The notes beneath the pieces were generated by a model that was given only the letters and a program-made list of their open reading frames with translations, made no database searches and was not told the DNA's origin. A program made the position numbers and the translations under genes. Shown here one piece after another: positions 1,885 through 7,429 of a stretch of DNA of 40,210 nucleotides; position 1 is the stretch's first letter, and each line of letters starts with the position of its first letter. The stretch comes from a virus. The stretch lies in UHGV virus genome UHGV-0388459, one strand, 5' to 3'.

Positions 1885-1957
1885 TCGCAAACTTTAATTA
1901 TACTATAATTGCTTATTGCAAACTTGTCAATAGTTTTCTTTTCATTTTGCAAACTTT
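1885..1957. promoter_or_regulatory. Three operator-like repeats (tYGCAAACTTK) at 1885-1895, 1916-1926 and 1947-1957, spaced exactly 31 bp apart
   Basis: Read directly. The TTGCAA/TTTGCAAA core is palindromic. The sites overlap the two divergent promoters. Confidence 0.5.
1902..1930 (-). promoter_or_regulatory. Leftward (lytic, Cro-side) promoter TTGACA-17-TATAGT
   Basis: Reverse complement of 1925-1930 is TTGACA and reverse complement of 1902-1907 is TATAGT, with a 17-bp spacer. Operator copy 2 overlaps the -35/spacer. Confidence 0.45.
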
Positions 1958-1961
1958 TTTA

Positions 1962-1990
1962 TTGACACTTTTTCAATACGCAACTATAAT
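1962..1990 (+). promoter_or_regulatory. Rightward (repressor-side) promoter TTGACA-17-TATAAT
   Basis: Consensus -35 at 1962-1967 and consensus -10 at 1985-1990. RBS AGGAGG 2001-2006 precedes the ATG at 2016. Confidence 0.6.
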
Positions 1991-2015: not shown

Positions 2016-2324
2016 ATGGGTGAGCACTTCAATGAAAATTTAAAAGAAGCAAGACTAAAATCTGGGCTATCTCAGAAAGATCTTTCAGAAAATATAGGTG
2101 TTGCAAAATCAACATATTCTCTATATGAAAGCGGAAAACGCGAGCCAAATGTAGATACGATTAAAAAAATAGCATCTGCATTAAATGTTTCTGCCGATAT
2201 GTTACTCGGACTTGAAGCTGAACCAACCACTCTTGCCGCCCACTTTGACGGTGATGAATACACAGAAGATGAAATGGAAGAAATCAAAAACTTCGCTGCA
2301 TTTGTAAAGAACAGAAGAAAATAA
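2016..2324 (+). CDS. cI-like prophage repressor, XRE-family HTH (102 aa; no S24 peptidase domain)
   Basis: LKEARLKSGLSQKDLSENIGVAKSTYSLYESGKREPNVDTIKKIASALNVSADMLLG is a classic HTH_XRE. The C-terminus is acidic. Confidence 0.8.
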   Translation: MGEHFNENLKEARLKSGLSQKDLSENIGVAKSTYSLYESGKREPNVDTIKKIASALNVSADMLLGLEAEPTTLAAHFDGDEYTEDEMEEIKNFAAFVKNRRK

Positions 2325-2372
2325 GACATTTTTATTGGACAGATAAGCTGATATGCTGTAGTGGGAGGTGTT

Positions 2373-2843
2373 ATGCATATGAACACATACGAATGTTTAC
2401 AAGACGAAGCCTGCAGGGACAGTATAAATGTTATAGATTATACATTTCACAGTGACCGGATAAAAGGATTGTACTGTGATGGTACTGTAGCAATCAAAAA
2501 AGATATGAATACAATTCAGAAAACCTGCACACTGGCTGAAGAGCTTGGACATCACCACACATCCGTTGGTGATATTATAAATACAAATTCCGTACAAAAC
2601 CGCAAGCAAGAACGACAGGCTCGTTTGTGGGGATACAATAAATTAATTGGACTCATGGGGATTGTCCGGGCATTTAATGCCGGATGTCAAAACCAATATG
2701 AAATTGCAGACTATTTAGATGTTACAGAAGAATACCTGCAAGAATGCATTAACTGCTATCAGAGTAAATATGGAATCTGCACTACTGTAGATAACTATGT
2801 TATTTACTTTGTTCCTTATCTGACAGTTACAGAAATGATATAA
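2373..2843 (+). CDS. ImmA/IrrE-like (DUF955) anti-repressor peptidase homolog with an atypical motif
   Basis: Position immediately after the XRE repressor, as in the ImmR/ImmA arrangement. Motif LAEELGHHH sits where ImmA has LAHELGH. ATG at 2373 after GGGAGG; the track start at 2361 is a GTG. Confidence 0.55.
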   Translation: MHMNTYECLQDEACRDSINVIDYTFHSDRIKGLYCDGTVAIKKDMNTIQKTCTLAEELGHHHTSVGDIINTNSVQNRKQERQARLWGYNKLIGLMGIVRAFNAGCQNQYEIADYLDVTEEYLQECINCYQSKYGICTTVDNYVIYFVPYLTVTEMI

Positions 2844-2919
2844 CCCCTCGTGGGATTATATAAATGAATAAGTGGTGTTATTCATAAAGAACGGTTCTTA
2901 TTAACAAAGGAGAAAACAA

Positions 2920-4512
2920 ATGGGTATAGGGGATATTTTTAAAATCAAGCAATTCAAAGAACGGATTGCCAGTCTTGAAGCGGAAAATCAAACGCTTTCG
3001 CAAAATAATACCGACTTACAGTCAGCTACTACTGAATTGAGAGGAAAACTTTCTGAAATTGGTGGATTTGACTACTATAAAGTAAAATCCATGACCGAAC
3101 AGATGGAAAAAGAGTACGCTGTAAAACAAAGGGATCTGAGTATAGAGTATGATGTAAAAGTAGATACTCTGAAAAAGGAATACGAAAGAAAGCAGGCAGA
3201 AGCAGAAAAAGGCTTACGAGAGCAACTCGTCCAGCTTGAAAGAATGATTTCTGACCGCACAGACAAATCGCAGTCGTTACAGGAAAAAATTGCAGAAGAA
3301 ATGCTTCAGGAGAGTAAGCTTGCCAAACAGATCAAGACCCAAACTAATAAACTCGGACGATCAAAAGAGTTGGTAAAAGCAATCAATTACAGTTTGGACA
3401 ATTTCTTTAATTATGATCCTGCAATCAGTTCTTTAAAATTTAGCGAAAAAGATTTAACCGATTTGGAGGAAATCAGTCCTTCCGTTATCCTAAAACTCCA
3501 TTGCATGGATGTAAAAGATCTCCGCAAAGCCTACCGTCAAAATGATAAGCAAATCAATGATCTTTTAGCAAAATATTCTGCCCGGTATACTACTAAAGCG
3601 AATCAGGCAATTTATAAACTTATGGTCATTGCTCTTAGAGCAGAACTTCAAAATATCCTGTATAACCTTAAATTTGAAAAGCTTGAAAAATCTATTGATG
3701 ATATCAAAGATGTAACTCATAAATATCTTGAGATTGCAGGAAATGGAAATCAGAGCATCGCAGGAACTCTTACCAAATTTATTGGAGAAATAGAGTATTT
3801 GTTTATTAATGCAGCAAAGATTGAATATAATTACTACGTTAAAAAAGAACAGGCTCGTCAGGAACAACTTGCTATCCGTGAGCAAATGAGACAGGAAGCC
3901 GAGGAACGTAAAGCACTGGAAGCTGAACGTAAAAAAATAGAACAGGAAGAATCAAAATACAATTCCGAAATTGAAAAGCTGAGAACCCAACTCACCAGTG
4001 CTAAAGACGAGGAGGTTGAAAAATTAAACGCAAGAATCCTTGCACTACAGGCTCAACTTGCTGACGTTGCTATAAAGAAAGACGAAATTTCTACTCTTGC
4101 CAATGGAAAAGCTGGTAACGTGTACGTTATCAGTAATCTTGGATCTTTTGGCGAAAATGTATTTAAGATTGGAATGACCCGAAGACTCAATCCACAGGAT
4201 CGAGTAGATGAACTTGGTAATGCATCTGTTCCATTCCGTTTTGACGTACATAGCTTTATTTTTTCTGATGATGCAGTTGGTCTTGAAAACAAACTTCATA
4301 CTATCCTGACTGACAAACGTGTAAATAAGGTAAATATGAGGAAAGAATTTTTCAACGTATCACTTGATGAACTGGAACAACTTGTTACAGGAATAGAACC
4401 TACAGCAGAGTTCAACAGGACTATGGCTGCCGAAGAGTTCAGACAATCACAATCAACAGATAGTGTTTATTCGTCTGATTATACTTATAGTGATGACGAA
4501 GACGATGAATAA
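2920..4512 (+). CDS. DUF4041-like coiled-coil protein with a C-terminal T5orf172 (GIY-YIG-like) domain (530 aa)
   Basis: About 390 aa are rich in heptad/charged residues. The C-terminus GNVYVISNLGSFGENVFKIGMTRRLNPQDRVDELGNASVPFRFDVHSFIFSDDAVGLENKLHTIL...EFF matches the T5orf172/MUG113 pattern. RBS AAAGGAGAAAAC. Confidence 0.7.
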   Translation: MGIGDIFKIKQFKERIASLEAENQTLSQNNTDLQSATTELRGKLSEIGGFDYYKVKSMTEQMEKEYAVKQRDLSIEYDVKVDTLKKEYERKQAEAEKGLREQLVQLERMISDRTDKSQSLQEKIAEEMLQESKLAKQIKTQTNKLGRSKELVKAINYSLDNFFNYDPAISSLKFSEKDLTDLEEISPSVILKLHCMDVKDLRKAYRQNDKQINDLLAKYSARYTTKANQAIYKLMVIALRAELQNILYNLKFEKLEKSIDDIKDVTHKYLEIAGNGNQSIAGTLTKFIGEIEYLFINAAKIEYNYYVKKEQARQEQLAIREQMRQEAEERKALEAERKKIEQEESKYNSEIEKLRTQLTSAKDEEVEKLNARILALQAQLADVAIKKDEISTLANGKAGNVYVISNLGSFGENVFKIGMTRRLNPQDRVDELGNASVPFRFDVHSFIFSDDAVGLENKLHTILTDKRVNKVNMRKEFFNVSLDELEQLVTGIEPTAEFNRTMAAEEFRQSQSTDSVYSSDYTYSDDEDDE

Positions 4513-4704
4513 TTAAAAAACCGCCCCTTCGCCAAAAGGAGCGGTACTGGAAGAAACACACGCCAATGTGCTTCTTTTGGTAACTCCGAAGAGATACACT
4601 AATGCCAATGAATATTGTATCATCTTCGGAGCAGTCACGCAAGCAGAACAGCCGTTCTGTGCTGGCTGTTATTTTTATACTCAAAAACAGAAAGGAAGAT
4701 GATT

Positions 4705-5799
4705 ATGTGGGTAGAAGAAAGAAAAACCGGATTCAAATTTGTTGAACGCTACACCGACCCGATGACAGGAAAGACCCGGAGGGTTTCTGTTGTAATGGAG
4801 AAAAATACGGCACAGTCAAGAAAACTGGCTGCTGTTGCACTGTCTGAAAAGATTGACAAGGCATTACTGCCACAGGTGGACAAGATCCGCTTGAAAGACC
4901 TGGTGGATTTATACAGAAAAGAACAGTTCCGAACACTTAAGCAGTCAACCTATCGCAGGAACAGTGCCGTGTGCAATACGCTAATGAAGATACTGGATCC
5001 TGAAATCTATGTTGACAAACTCACCGCAGGTTACATCCGTGAGCGATTTCTCAATACTGGTCGGGAACACAGTACATTAAACGAATGGATGATTCGTTTA
5101 AAAGCCTTGCTCCGCTGGGGATATCGCAATGACTATATTAAAGACATATCCTATCTCAACAAAATAGAAAGATTCAGCGATATTCCACACCGTCAAAAGA
5201 TTGAAGATAAGTTTCTTGAATCTGCCGAACTGAAAGAATTGCTCTCCGGCATGACAATTCTAAAATGGAAACTCCTTACCGAGTTCCTTGCACTATCCGG
5301 GTTGCGATTCGGTGAAGCCGCTGCTCTCACGAAGTCTGACGTTGATTTGAAAAGCAGGAAAATCCACGTGACTAAAACCTACGACAGTGTGGCTGATATT
5401 ACTACAACGCCCAAAACAGCCTGTTCCGTACGTGACGTATATATTCAGGACGAATTGCTTACAGTTTGTAGAAACGTGCTTCTAGGCTGTCACAGTGGCA
5501 CTGTAGTTTCAATTAGTGGCGTATTCTTTCCCGGTACAATCCGGGAACATATTGAATTTGATTGCTATGCCAAATACCTAAGAGAAACATCTCAGAGAGT
5601 TATTGGACGCAGGATCACGCCGCATACACTCAGGCACACTCACGCAAGTTTGCTGATGGAACAGGGAATTGATATTGATAGCATATCCAAAAGACTTGGA
5701 CATAATGACAGCAGGATTACCAGAGAGATCTATCTGCACGTAACGAAGAAACTCGAAGAACAGAGAAATGCACAGATCAAAGAATTAAAAATTTTATAG
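4705..5799 (+). CDS. int: Tyrosine site-specific integrase (phage integrase family)
   Basis: C-terminal catalytic region ...ITPHTLRHTHASLLMEQGIDIDSISKRLGHNDSRITREIYLHV carries the R/H-x-x-R/Y box. N-terminus MWVEERKTGFKF is typical. The ATG at 4705 has better RBS spacing than the in-frame ATG at 4699. Confidence 0.85.
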   Translation: MWVEERKTGFKFVERYTDPMTGKTRRVSVVMEKNTAQSRKLAAVALSEKIDKALLPQVDKIRLKDLVDLYRKEQFRTLKQSTYRRNSAVCNTLMKILDPEIYVDKLTAGYIRERFLNTGREHSTLNEWMIRLKALLRWGYRNDYIKDISYLNKIERFSDIPHRQKIEDKFLESAELKELLSGMTILKWKLLTEFLALSGLRFGEAAALTKSDVDLKSRKIHVTKTYDSVADITTTPKTACSVRDVYIQDELLTVCRNVLLGCHSGTVVSISGVFFPGTIREHIEFDCYAKYLRETSQRVIGRRITPHTLRHTHASLLMEQGIDIDSISKRLGHNDSRITREIYLHVTKKLEEQRNAQIKELKIL

Positions 5800-6062
5800 T
5801 TTGCCCCCTTTATGCCCCCTTTTGACAATAAAAAATCTCCGAACCCCTTGCAAACACTGGATTTACAGGAGATTCAGAGATTCAATCTAATGCCGCAGAC
5901 CGGCTACCCTATACATATAAATAGGTATAAACACTGTAAAAATATTTGATTTTCACAAATTTCTCATGTATTTCAATACAAGCAAATATAATAAACTGCC
6001 CCCTATTTGCCCCCACTTAAGATGATACAATATTCAGCCCCGGAGTGACTGCTCCGGGGTAA
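5800..6062. other. Candidate attP/recombination region downstream of int
   Basis: Direct repeats tgccccctttatgccccc (5803-5820) and tgccccctatttgccccc (5996-6013). An 8-bp-stem hairpin ccccggag-tgactg-ctccgggg lies at 6038-6059. Sequence blocks here are shared in inverted orientation with 4603-4632. Confidence 0.3.
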
Positions 6063-6064
6063 TC

Positions 6065-6381: not shown

Positions 6382-6885
6382 TCACCTTGTCCATTCTTCC
6401 TTCTTTTCAAGCACATCCTTCATTACCGTTTCCGGCACATCTTTCATTTTCTTTAATTCTTCCTCTGTGTATCCCATCTTGTTAAGTTCTCTTGCTATCA
6501 TTACCGGTGTTACTTCTTCCGGCTTTGCATTTTCGTTTTCTCCCTTCAGTTCTTCCAGTGCTGCATTCAGAGCTTTTCCAAACACTTCCCGCGAATCCTC
6601 TTCTTTTTCATCCTGTTTAGGAATGTAGACAACGATGGTTTTTTCTTCCTTGTCATAGCTTCCTGATTTTGTTTTACAGTCTGCATAGTTCTCTTTGTAT
6701 TCGCTGTATTTCATTTCTACTTCTTCACAGTTTTCTGCTTTTTCTTCGTTCATTTTCTTTTTATAGCATTCTGGGCAGAGTCCGCTTTTTCCGAAATATT
6801 TAATCTTTCTTTCACGTTCTTCTGCTTTTCCGTAAATCTGTACTTTTTGTGTGTGTCCACAGCTAAACGTTACATCGTACTTCAT
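6382..6885 (-). CDS. Hypothetical protein with an N-terminal Cys-x-His...Cys-Pro-Glu-Cys zinc-ribbon-like motif and an acidic Lys/Glu-rich tail (167 aa)
   Basis: FSCGHTQKV...GLCPECYKK, then a low-complexity charged region. RBS AAAGGAGAA. Carries its own copy of the promoter/operator module. Confidence 0.55.
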   Translation of the reverse strand: MKYDVTFSCGHTQKVQIYGKAEERERKIKYFGKSGLCPECYKKKMNEEKAENCEEVEMKYSEYKENYADCKTKSGSYDKEEKTIVVYIPKQDEKEEDSREVFGKALNAALEELKGENENAKPEEVTPVMIARELNKMGYTEEELKKMKDVPETVMKDVLEKKEEWTR

Positions 6886-7009: not shown

Positions 7010-7429
7010 TTACAGGCAGTACATAATATAATACGTGTTGCCATTATCTTCGACAATTCCCCAGTCTGGAATTGCTATCTTTTCCTCTAGCATTTTTCTA
7101 TACTTTTCTTGCTCTTCTTCGTCAACTCCCCATTCTTCCATGTAATCATCGAAGTGTCTTTCAAAGTCTTCTCCTTCGAATACTACAGTGCCTCTTTTAA
7201 GTTCTTCTTCCGCTTTTCTTTTTGAATATCCATTTTTCATTAATACTTCGATATCAGTCATCTTTTTTCCTCCTCTCAGAATCTCGGCTACAACTAGCCG
7301 TTCTACATAGTCGGGGCATTTGCTAAGCCCCTTCTCCCAATTTTCGAGACTCCTGTACGGAATCCCGAGTTTCCGGGACACGTCCTTTCTGGACATCCCC
7401 CGTGCCTTGCGAGCTTCTTCAATATTCAT
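7010..7429 (-). CDS. HTH (XRE-like) DNA-binding protein with an acidic C-terminal domain (139 aa)
   Basis: ARKARGMSRKDVSRKLGIPYRSLENWEKGLSKCPDYVERLVVAEIL is a helix-turn-helix. Preceded by promoter/operator copy 2. Confidence 0.6.
   Translation of the reverse strand: MNIEEARKARGMSRKDVSRKLGIPYRSLENWEKGLSKCPDYVERLVVAEILRGGKKMTDIEVLMKNGYSKRKAEEELKRGTVVFEGEDFERHFDDYMEEWGVDEEEQEKYRKMLEEKIAIPDWGIVEDNGNTYYIMYCL

What the first reader, a model, noticed from the sequence alone, without database searches (positions are those of the whole stretch)
2920..4512. Large coiled-coil DUF4041-like protein with a C-terminal T5orf172 (GIY-YIG-like) domain sitting in the lysogeny module
The gene lies between the repressor/ImmA pair and the integrase, on the lysogen-expressed strand, with its own strong RBS. 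About 390 aa of heptad-rich coiled coil are followed by a domain matching the T5orf172/MUG113 pattern (GxVYVxxN...KIGxT..L..R..EL......PF.....F...DA...E..LH). T5orf172-domain genes are enriched in anti-phage defence islands and prophage moron positions. This is therefore a candidate superinfection-exclusion/abortive-infection effector rather than a lysogeny housekeeping gene.
Basis: partly seen in the sequence, partly recalled or inferred. Interest (0 to 1): 0.7.

Follow-up and report, generated by a model that had tools for sequence, protein, structure and literature searches.

The report
Prophage-borne SNIPE/PD-λ-1 defence nuclease homologue
This gene in a gut-Clostridia prophage encodes a relative of SNIPE (PD-λ-1), a known anti-phage nuclease that cuts incoming phage DNA at the membrane, so it is a new member of a known defence family, though it has no membrane anchor.

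Summary

The N-terminal 390 aa are not one coiled coil. "Abortive infection" is the less likely mode. The family is already characterised.

The window protein has no transmembrane helix. Among 79 homologues, a conserved MG-φ-x-DIFK N-terminus (50) and a TM segment (21) never occur together, and an acidic C-tail is typical of the subfamily. The gene sits in a cargo-swapping slot with conserved junctions. Sister phages carry lipoproteins, a HicB-like gene or a canonical DUF4041 allele there.

Verdict: new member of a known kind, with modest interest.

The parts
1962..1990 (+). Perfect sigma-70-type promoter (TTGACA-17-TATAAT) upstream of the repressor; likely drives repressor, ImmA and possibly the nuclease gene in the lysogen
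   Evidence: 12/12 match. A divergent 11/12 promoter lies at 1930-1902 on the minus strand. Function is inferred.
2016..2324 (+). CI-like repressor (HTH_3)
   Evidence: PF01381, E=1e-19; PHROG transcriptional regulator/repressor families
2361..2843 (+). ImmA/IrrE-type metalloprotease (anti-repressor protease of the immunity module)
   Evidence: Peptidase_M78, E=1e-5; phrog_87 metallo-protease, E=1.5e-35
2838..2919 (+). Conserved left junction and 5' leader of the cargo slot: hairpin 2838-2861 without a T-run, then RBS AAAGGAG at 2906-2912
   Evidence: identity with L016 starts at the hairpin although the upstream gene differs; the same leader precedes different cargo genes in L026, L031 and L028.
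2920..4512 (+). SNIPE/PD-lambda-1-family gene, 530 aa
   Evidence: ORF; PD-Lambda-1, E=2.5e-82, aa 60-515; phrog_1847, E=6e-100
2920..2958 (+). Conserved N-terminal motif MGIGDIFKIKQFK (aa 1-13); candidate targeting element that replaces the TM helix of other family members
   Evidence: M1, G2, D5, I6, F7, K13 invariant; 50 of 79 homologues have it, never together with a TM. Function is inferred.
2929..3405 (+). Long N-terminal helices (aa 4-46 and 49-162), leucine-zipper-like at the start
   Evidence: model; only generic coiled-coil matches, E>=0.03
3325..3615 (+). Subfamily-specific basic block (aa 136-232, net charge +5, near-invariant within the subfamily); not alignable to the pre-core region of canonical DUF4041 proteins
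3616..3804 (+). Diverged DUF4041 core equivalent (aa 233-295)
   Evidence: hhalign 98.2%, aligned to E. coli PD-lambda-1 aa 197 onward, where Pfam DUF4041 hits at 198-252; Pfam itself negative
3751..4101 (+). Long connecting helices (aa 278-394) between the middle domain and the nuclease
4102..4455 (+). GIY-YIG-superfamily nuclease domain (T5orf172/MUG113), aa 395-512; putative catalytic Glu E456 at 4285-4287
4456..4509 (+). Disordered acidic tail (aa 513-530, net charge -8), typical of the subfamily
   Evidence: at least 6 D/E in the last 20 aa in 71 of 79 homologues; absent from canonical DUF4041 proteins
4515..4545 (.). Conserved right junction and hairpin after the stop codon. The T-run is on the minus-strand side. 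Sister phages diverge inside the loop.
4647..4670 (+). Terminator-like hairpin with T-run between the nuclease gene and the integrase
4699..5799 (+). Tyrosine integrase
   Evidence: Phage_integrase, E=5e-22; phrog_1

Best explanation
The gene encodes a diverged, TM-less member of the SNIPE (PD-lambda-1) family of single-gene anti-phage nucleases. It is carried as exchangeable cargo in the lysogeny module of a siphovirus-type temperate phage of gut Clostridia, probably Lachnospiraceae.

Proposed mechanism:
1. In the lysogen the gene is transcribed with, or next to, the repressor-ImmA operon.
2. The protein is an elongated helical molecule. Its N-terminal part positions it at the site of phage genome entry.
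3. The central DUF4041-type domain binds DNA and/or the incoming phage's tape measure protein.
4. The C-terminal GIY-YIG domain, with E456 as the catalytic Glu, cuts superinfecting phage DNA as it enters.
5. The cell and its resident prophage survive.

Shown here: family homology, nuclease fold, conservation of the catalytic Glu, gene position and orientation, and cargo-slot behaviour. Inferred from the E. coli homologue: direct (non-abortive) defence, cleavage during injection, and the DNA/tape-measure-binding role of the middle domain. Speculative: the conserved MG-phi-x-DIFK N-terminus substitutes for the missing TM anchor, and the acidic tail restrains the nuclease.
For: Homology and domain content:
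- PADLOC PD-Lambda-1 E=2.5e-82 over aa 60-515. The non-nuclease part alone still hits (E=6e-12).
- hhalign to DUF4041 proteins: 98.2% probability.
- MUG113 and T5orf172 above Pfam cut-offs.
- The C-domain model is closest to GIY-YIG nucleases.
- E456 aligns with E414, whose mutation abolishes SNIPE defence.

Functional evidence from homologues:
- 34% of SNIPE homologues lack a TM.
- A Gram-positive homologue gives a reduction of more than 3 logs against S. thermophilus siphoviruses.

Gene context:
- Same gene order (repressor/ImmA, this family, integrase) in Corynebacterium phage Poushou. The gene lies between the repressor gene and the integrase in EJ-1, CDMH1, Javan523 and PLE3.
- 42 of 70 homologue loci have a recombinase within 2.5 kb downstream.
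- Phages with identical or near-identical repressor/ImmA carry other cargo in the slot, between conserved junctions.
Against: - No TM helix (best 19-residue Kyte-Doolittle score 0.98), and no significant similarity of the N-terminus to any membrane-associated protein.
- The hydrophobic moment of the N-terminus is low. Removing the TM makes E. coli SNIPE toxic, so how this variant is restrained is unknown.
- Pfam DUF4041 is negative, and aa 136-232 do not align with the canonical domain.
- No promoter was detected in the 76-bp spacer, and a hairpin sits at its start.
- A 98.5%-identical S. thermophilus homologue was inactive, so activity cannot be assumed from homology.
- There is no experimental datum for this protein.
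Confidence: 0.62

Rival explanations
1. Cytoplasmic, phage-triggered abortive-infection nuclease. Lacking a membrane anchor, the protein sits auto-inhibited in the cytoplasm (for example through its acidic tail). On infection it degrades DNA indiscriminately and kills the cell before phage release.
For: - No TM.
- SNIPE without its TM localises to the nucleoid and cuts host DNA.
- The acidic disordered tail is specific to this subfamily.
Against: - The characterised homologue gives direct defence.
- TM-bearing members of the same subfamily carry the same acidic tail, so the tail does not replace the anchor.
- The N-terminal motif and the TM are mutually exclusive alternatives at the same position, which suggests equivalent roles.
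Confidence: 0.15
2. Selfish free-standing GIY-YIG homing endonuclease. Its presence/absence polymorphism would reflect its own mobility and not a benefit to the lysogen.
For: - GIY-YIG fold.
- The gene is present or absent between near-identical phages, with sharp junctions.
Against: - The nuclease lies at the C-terminus, behind about 390 aa of helical and DUF4041-type sequence. There is no C-terminal DNA-binding domain of the kind that follows the catalytic domain in I-TevI-type homing enzymes (I-TevI architecture from established knowledge).
- The same junctions flank unrelated cargo such as lipoproteins and a HicB-like gene, so exchange is a property of the slot.
- Homologues confer phage resistance experimentally.
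Confidence: 0.04
3. Phage housekeeping protein: an SMC/SbcC-like 'chromosome segregation ATPase', a helicase or a replication factor, as several public records name family members.
For: Source annotations such as 'DNA repair exonuclease SbcCD ATPase subunit', 'chromosome segregation ATPase', 'helicase' and 'replication'.
Against: - No Walker A motif (GxxxxGK[ST]) anywhere in the sequence (read directly).
- No ATPase or helicase Pfam hit.
- The gene is dispensable: phages with repressor/ImmA at 98-100% identity lack it.
- The names are explained by coiled-coil compositional similarity.
Confidence: 0.02

Closest known systems
SNIPE (= PD-lambda-1) of E. coli; Vassallo et al. 2022 (PMC9519451) and Saxton et al. 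2025 (bioRxiv 10.1101/2025.11.03.685801)
   Same: - Single-gene system of about 500 aa with an elongated helical architecture.
- Central DUF4041-type core followed by a long helix.
- C-terminal T5orf172/MUG113 GIY-YIG domain with many invariant residues across the five aligned proteins (about 30% identity over the whole protein), including the catalytic Glu (E414 in SNIPE, E456 here).
- Carried on prophages. An E. coli phage (PhiR26_1) carries a copy annotated PD-lambda-1.
   Different: - No N-terminal TM helix.
- The Pfam DUF4041 model does not hit.
- The region before the core (aa 136-232) is remodelled.
- Acidic C-terminal tail.
- The host is a Gram-positive gut anaerobe, so ManYZ (which SNIPE associates with in E. 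coli) and the periplasmic topology do not apply.
- No experimental data.
Canonical DUF4041/T5orf172 proteins of temperate Gram-positive phages: Streptococcus EJ-1 ORF3, C. difficile CDMH1 gp42, Lactobacillus PLE3 gp32, Corynebacterium Poushou gp33, S. pyogenes Javan523
   Same: - Same location: between the repressor (or ImmA) and the integrase, on the same strand.
- Same nuclease domain.
- PLE3 gp32 and the L028 allele share the MG-x-x-DIFK start.
   Different: - They hit Pfam DUF4041 at E=1e-15 to 1e-24.
- EJ-1 and CDMH1 have TM helices.
- The four aligned here (EJ-1, CDMH1, Javan523 and the E. coli protein) have no acidic tail.
S. thermophilus PD-Lambda-1(EU01) (bioRxiv 10.1101/2024.10.22.618286)
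   Same: Gram-positive family member with demonstrated protection (more than 3 logs) against siphoviruses when expressed from its native promoter.
   Different: It is chromosomal, not prophage-borne as used there. Its sequence relationship to the window protein was not examined here. A 98.5%-identical allele was inactive.
Ltp / Sie2009-type superinfection-exclusion proteins of lactic-acid-bacteria prophages (PMC3952083)
   Same: Ltp is encoded in the lysogeny module, is expressed in the prophage state, acts at genome entry, and has a proposed binding site in the tape measure protein of the incoming phage. Sister phages of the window phage carry lipoproteins in the very same slot.
   Different: These are small, extracytoplasmic, lipid- or TM-anchored proteins without a nuclease. 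They block injection and do not cut DNA. There is no sequence relationship.

Membership tests
SNIPE / PD-lambda-1 | Significant full-length match to the family's curated HMMs | tested here: met
   PADLOC PDLC03976 E=2.5e-82 (aa 60-515 against profile 41-474/491) and PDLC03977 E=1.3e-76
SNIPE / PD-lambda-1 | C-terminal GIY-YIG (T5orf172/MUG113) nuclease domain with the catalytic Glu (E414 in SNIPE) | tested here: met
SNIPE / PD-lambda-1 | Central DUF4041 domain detected by Pfam PF13250 | tested here: not met
   No hit even at E<=10, and none precomputed for the subfamily. All five canonical homologues scanned hit at E<=1e-15.
SNIPE / PD-lambda-1 | Central domain homologous to the DUF4041 core at profile level | tested here: met
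   hhalign 98.2%, E=4e-14, window aa 233-388 against E. coli aa 197-345. aa 1-391 alone hit the PD-Lambda-1 HMM at E=6e-12. aa 136-232 are not aligned.
SNIPE / PD-lambda-1 | N-terminal transmembrane helix (present in about 66% of homologues; essential in E. coli SNIPE) | tested here: not met
   Best 19-residue Kyte-Doolittle score is 0.98, against 2.3-3.4 in the TM-bearing references. No upstream start codon is available.
SNIPE / PD-lambda-1 | Membrane localisation by some means | not testable with these tools
   Indirect evidence only: the conserved N-terminal motif is mutually exclusive with a TM in 79 homologues. There is no significant match to membrane-binding proteins.
SNIPE / PD-lambda-1 | Direct (non-abortive) defence by cleaving phage DNA during injection; dependence on the tape measure protein | not testable with these tools
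   Known only for E. coli SNIPE
SNIPE / PD-lambda-1 | Single-gene system with no obligate partner | tested here: met
   Neighbours differ between loci that carry the 99%-identical gene, and the recombinase type varies
GIY-YIG nuclease superfamily | Alpha/beta GIY-YIG fold | tested here: met
GIY-YIG nuclease superfamily | Conserved Tyr (GIY), Arg, Glu and Asn catalytic set | tested here: inconclusive
   Y402, R421/R422, E456 and N469/N472 are invariant in the family alignments. Only the Glu is tied to experiment. Residue-level superposition on I-TevI was not done.
Ltp/Sie-type superinfection exclusion | Encoded in the lysogeny module on the lysogenic strand | tested here: met
   Expression itself was not tested.
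Ltp/Sie-type superinfection exclusion | Small envelope-anchored (lipoprotein or TM) protein acting outside the cytoplasm | tested here: not met
   No signal peptide, lipobox or TM; 530-aa nuclease
Abortive infection systems | Death or arrest of the infected cell | not testable with these tools
   The E. coli homologue is non-abortive
Free-standing GIY-YIG homing endonucleases (I-TevI/Seg type) | [quoted passage not shown] | tested here: not met
   The nuclease is at the C-terminus, after about 390 aa of helical sequence, and there is no DNA-binding Pfam domain
SMC/SbcC-type ATPase (public mis-annotation) | Walker A/B ATPase head | tested here: not met
   No GxxxxGK[ST] in the sequence and no ATPase Pfam hit

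The most novel reading that the evidence does not exclude
The invariant N-terminal peptide (M-G-phi-x-D-I-F-K/R..phi-K) is a peripheral membrane- or injection-site-targeting module that functionally replaces the TM helix of SNIPE. Its first seven positions follow the pattern of the MinE membrane-targeting sequence (hydrophobic residues 3, 4, 6 and 7, then basic residues; PMC5473585). Together with a subfamily-specific acidic tail that restrains the nuclease, it would define a soluble-to-membrane 'recruitable' SNIPE variant, widespread in prophages of gut Clostridia. That would explain how the one-third of SNIPE homologues without a TM avoid self-cleavage.
Probability: 0.25. Interest if true: 0.45.

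Novelty: new member of a known kind. Interest (0 to 1): 0.3.

Why it matters
This finding extends a recently explained defence principle to prophages of abundant human-gut Clostridia. The principle is self/non-self discrimination by location: DNA is cut only while it is being injected. At least 264 species-representative genomes encode relatives of the window protein.

The finding also identifies an easily recognised cargo slot between ImmA and the integrase, bounded by conserved junctions. That slot could be mined for further exclusion genes, since none of the alternative cargo genes matches a known defence model.

The TM-less architecture raises a specific open question: how is an unanchored SNIPE kept away from the host chromosome? 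Otherwise the gene is what standard defence annotation tools would already call it.

Tried and rejected
- **Pfam DUF4041:** scanned at E<=10, on the whole protein and on aa 1-397. No hit.
- **NCBIfam:** nothing meaningful.
- **phmmer of the C-terminal 139 aa against PDB sequences:** no hit at E<=1.
- **Foldseek of the whole model against PDB:** only generic helical proteins, uninformative. This was solved by modelling the C-domain alone.
- **Second homologue search with a five-sequence profile:** returned almost the same close subfamily, with little added diversity.
- **N-terminal 60-aa profile against PDB:** only leucine-zipper-type hits (E>=0.03). GpsB at E=2.8 is not significant.
- **Hydrophobic-moment analysis of the N-terminus:** low values, no support for a classical amphipathic helix. 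The same measure is equally low for MinE's verified membrane-targeting sequence, so it does not discriminate.
- **My simple heptad scan:** not discriminating.
- **PADLOC on ten alternative cargo proteins:** no hits.
- **Promoter scan of the 76-bp spacer:** no candidate at 9/12 or better.
- **Rejected readings:** SMC/SbcC ATPase, helicase or replication protein (no motifs, dispensable gene); homing endonuclease (wrong architecture, and exchange is a property of the slot).
Full report
**1. Observation**

The ORF at 2920-4512 (+, 530 aa) exists, and its ATG is the first start codon after the upstream stop, so no N-terminal extension is possible. AAAGGAG lies 7 nt upstream of the ATG. An HTH_3 repressor (2016-2324) and an ImmA/IrrE metalloprotease (2361-2843) lie upstream on the same strand, and a tyrosine integrase (4699-5799) lies downstream. 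Most of the rest of the window is minus-strand phage genes: a tape measure protein of 1380 aa, major head protein, portal, large terminase, primase/helicase and endolysin. The element is therefore a siphovirus-type temperate phage. A perfect TTGACA-17-TATAAT promoter precedes the repressor, and a divergent promoter faces the other way, as in a classical genetic switch.

**2. What the protein is**

*Database matches.* Pfam gives MUG113 (E=2e-18) and T5orf172 (E=1e-14) at aa 400-490, but gives no DUF4041 hit even at E<=10. PADLOC gives PD-Lambda-1 at E=2.5e-82 over aa 60-515. PHROGs gives phrog_1847 at E=6e-100, a family of unknown function.

*The known family.* PD-lambda-1 was found by Vassallo et al. 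[quoted passage not shown] It has since been characterised as SNIPE (Saxton et al. 2025):
- It has an N-terminal TM helix, a DUF4041 domain that promotes DNA binding and is implicated in tape-measure recognition, and a GIY-YIG nuclease whose E414A mutation abolishes defence.
- It gives direct, non-abortive defence by cutting lambda DNA during injection.
- It does not affect induction of a resident prophage.
- Deleting the TM makes it toxic.
- 34% of homologues lack a TM.

*Alignment with references.* I aligned the window protein with an E. coli phage PD-lambda-1, Streptococcus EJ-1 ORF3, C. difficile CDMH1 gp42 and S. pyogenes Javan523. Overall identity is about 30%, but the nuclease domain is highly conserved, and E456 aligns with E414.

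*Middle domain.* The non-nuclease part alone still matches the PD-Lambda-1 HMM (E=6e-12). hhalign of the subfamily against nine Pfam-positive DUF4041 proteins gives 98.2% probability (E=4e-14) for window aa 233-388. This stretch aligns with the DUF4041 core and the following long helix. Residues 136-232 are basic and nearly invariant within the subfamily, and they do not align with the canonical region before the core.

*Overall architecture.* The full-length model (pLDDT 75) shows these elements:
- helices at aa 4-162;
- a low-confidence stretch without regular structure (about aa 163-180);
- a helical bundle at aa ~181-277;
- long helices at aa 278-394;
- the alpha/beta nuclease domain;
- a disordered acidic tail.

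**3. Differences from the characterised relative**

The window protein has no TM helix: its best 19-residue Kyte-Doolittle score is 0.98, against 2.3-3.4 in the TM-bearing references. The N-terminal 60-aa profile matches only generic leucine zippers.

I surveyed 79 homologues from species-representative genomes:
- 50 begin with M-[GSN]-phi-x-D-I-F-[KR]...phi-K, with D5, F7 and K13 almost invariant.
- 21 have a TM segment instead, and five of those also have a zinc ribbon.
- 8 have neither.
- None has both (Fisher p=6e-13, not corrected for phylogeny).

The motif also starts canonical DUF4041 proteins (PLE3 gp32, P0121 and the L028 allele). This fits the 'N-terminal adapter' idea of Saxton et al. 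and suggests the motif is an alternative to the anchor.

The first seven positions resemble the MinE membrane-targeting sequence, which has hydrophobic L3, L4, F6, F7 and L8 plus basic R10, K11 and K12 (PMC5473585). The N. gonorrhoeae MinE N-terminus was verified in PDB entry 2kxo. This resemblance is a lead and not a test. Hydrophobic moments are low and uninformative, and the SNIPE paper does not mention MinE or amphipathic helices.

An acidic tail (at least 6 D/E in the last 20 residues) occurs in 71 of 79 subfamily members, including TM-bearing ones. It is absent from the four canonical reference proteins aligned here.

**4. Context**

*Occurrence.* A 99%-identical protein occurs in human-gut contigs in two contexts. 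In one the integrase is followed by lysis genes, as in the window. In the other the element is integrated next to bacterial genes, at a tRNA-Thr gene. A 71%-identical relative lies directly upstream of a serine recombinase at the end of a different prophage. Relatives occur in at least 264 species-representative genomes, mostly Lachnospiraceae and Oscillospiraceae, and the closest is a Mediterraneibacter MAG at 74% identity. Of the 70 loci with enough downstream sequence, 42 have a recombinase within 2.5 kb downstream, nearly always on the same strand. Cultured phages show the same arrangement. Corynebacterium phage Poushou has exactly the order HTH, metalloprotease, DUF4041 protein, integrase. 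In EJ-1, CDMH1, Javan523 and PLE3 the gene also lies between the repressor gene and the integrase. ES18 gp19 was annotated as a 'possible moron'.

*A variable slot.* Among 29 viral contigs with a related integrase, the cargo between ImmA and the integrase varies:
- L041 carries the same gene at 99% identity.
- L026 and L031, whose repressor is 100% and whose ImmA is 98-100% identical to the window's, carry a 177-aa lipoprotein plus a HicB-like gene.
- L028 carries a canonical Pfam-positive DUF4041/T5orf172 allele of 443 aa.
- L017, with a 99%-identical integrase, carries a 290-aa lipoprotein.
- Other contigs carry membrane proteins or zinc-ribbon/FtsK-gamma proteins.

*Conserved junctions.* Both ends of the slot are conserved. 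The left leader, with its hairpin and RBS (window 2838-2915), precedes different cargo genes. The sequence AAAAACCGCCCCTTCGCCAAAA after the stop codon is shared even with the canonical allele, and the loci diverge inside the hairpin loop. This marks an accessory-gene hotspot. It is also the position where Gram-positive prophages are known to carry superinfection-exclusion genes such as ltp, which is transcribed in the lysogen, is membrane-tethered, and has a proposed binding site in the tape measure protein of the phage it excludes (PMC3952083).

**5. Mechanism and rivals**

*Best explanation (confidence about 0.62).* This is a SNIPE-type direct-defence nuclease expressed by the lysogen. It cuts superinfecting siphovirus DNA at entry and spares the resident prophage. 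Homology, fold, catalytic residue and context are shown here. Localisation, timing and target are inferred from E. coli SNIPE and from S. thermophilus PD-Lambda-1, which gives a reduction of more than 3 logs, although a 98.5%-identical allele was inactive.

*Rivals.*
- Cytoplasmic abortive-infection nuclease (0.15).
- Homing endonuclease (0.04).
- ATPase or replication housekeeping protein, as some public annotations say (0.02). There is no Walker A motif, and the gene is dispensable.

*Expression is unproven.* No promoter was found in the 76-bp spacer. A hairpin without a T-run lies at the start of the spacer. Terminator-like hairpins separate the gene from the integrase.

**6. Novelty and verdict**

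PADLOC-type annotation would already label this gene PD-Lambda-1, and the family's mechanism is published. It is therefore a new member of a known kind. It belongs to a diverged subfamily: Pfam-DUF4041-negative, usually without a TM, and acidic-tailed. The non-nuclease part finds 271 clusters at 50% identity in 1.84 billion representatives. Interest is modest at 0.3. The remaining open point is how SNIPE variants without an anchor are targeted and restrained.

Noticed in passing
window 2838-2919 and 4513-4545; loci L016-L042: The ImmA-integrase interval is a cargo-exchange hotspot with conserved left (hairpin plus RBS) and right (AAAAACCGCCCCTTCGCCAAAA) junctions. Sister phages with repressor/ImmA at 98-100% identity carry entirely different genes there.
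   Followed up: yes
L018:3399-4907, L027:2683-4275, L035:3350-4744, L037:3740-4747: Zinc-ribbon proteins of 335-530 aa occupy the same lysogeny-module region in related phages; the three larger ones (464-530 aa) also carry FtsK-gamma and DUF7577 domains. They match no PADLOC model and may be uncharacterised exclusion or defence candidates.
   Followed up: partly
L026:4483-5016, L017:4060-4932, L035:4825-5643, L021:1347-1925: Predicted lipoproteins (signal peptide plus lipobox Cys) and a membrane-anchored protein in the same slot. They are reminiscent of Ltp-type superinfection-exclusion proteins but have no Pfam or PADLOC hit.
   Followed up: partly
L026:5430-5828; L041:5273-5827: L026 carries a HicB-like antitoxin ORF (Pfam HicB_lk_antitox, E=2e-13) immediately upstream of the integrase. 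L041 has a 184-aa ORF at the equivalent position that was not scanned. A cognate HicA was not looked for.
   Followed up: no
window 1902-1990: Back-to-back near-perfect sigma-70 promoters (12/12 on the plus strand, 11/12 on the minus strand) between the repressor and an 82-aa minus-strand ORF (1437-1685). This looks like a textbook lysis/lysogeny switch. Operators were not mapped.
   Followed up: no
L009:8968-9040; window 5800-6064: The sister phage that carries the 99%-identical gene is integrated at the 3' end of a tRNA-Thr(ggt) gene. The window's region downstream of the integrase differs there, so its attachment site is probably different. A GC-rich hairpin at 6037-6060 is conserved in the phage-form contig.
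   Followed up: partly
window 6382-6885 and 7010-7429 (minus strand): Two ORFs lie between the integrase end and the lysis genes. One is Cys-rich and acidic (167 aa). The other is a 139-aa protein whose N-terminus reads like an HTH. Both sit in another typical moron position and were not analysed.
   Followed up: no
public records: Family members are annotated in public databases as 'chromosome segregation ATPase', 'SbcCD ATPase subunit', 'helicase', 'AAA-ATPase', 'replication' or 'putative regulatory protein'. These names appear to be coiled-coil artefacts: the window protein has no Walker A motif and no ATPase Pfam hit.
   Followed up: partly
P0135 (alignment A2, columns 519-542): One homologue has a 24-aa internal tandem duplication inside the nuclease domain (RLEPQERVNELGNASVPFKFDVHS, twice). 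It is probably an inactive or misassembled copy.
   Followed up: no
L024:5161-5790 and L023:5173-5802: An unrelated 209-aa cargo protein in the same slot also begins MGFLD..., and it has a Gly/Ala-rich hydrophobic segment near aa 137. It is unclear whether the shared start reflects recombination within the first codons or a shared targeting peptide.
   Followed up: no
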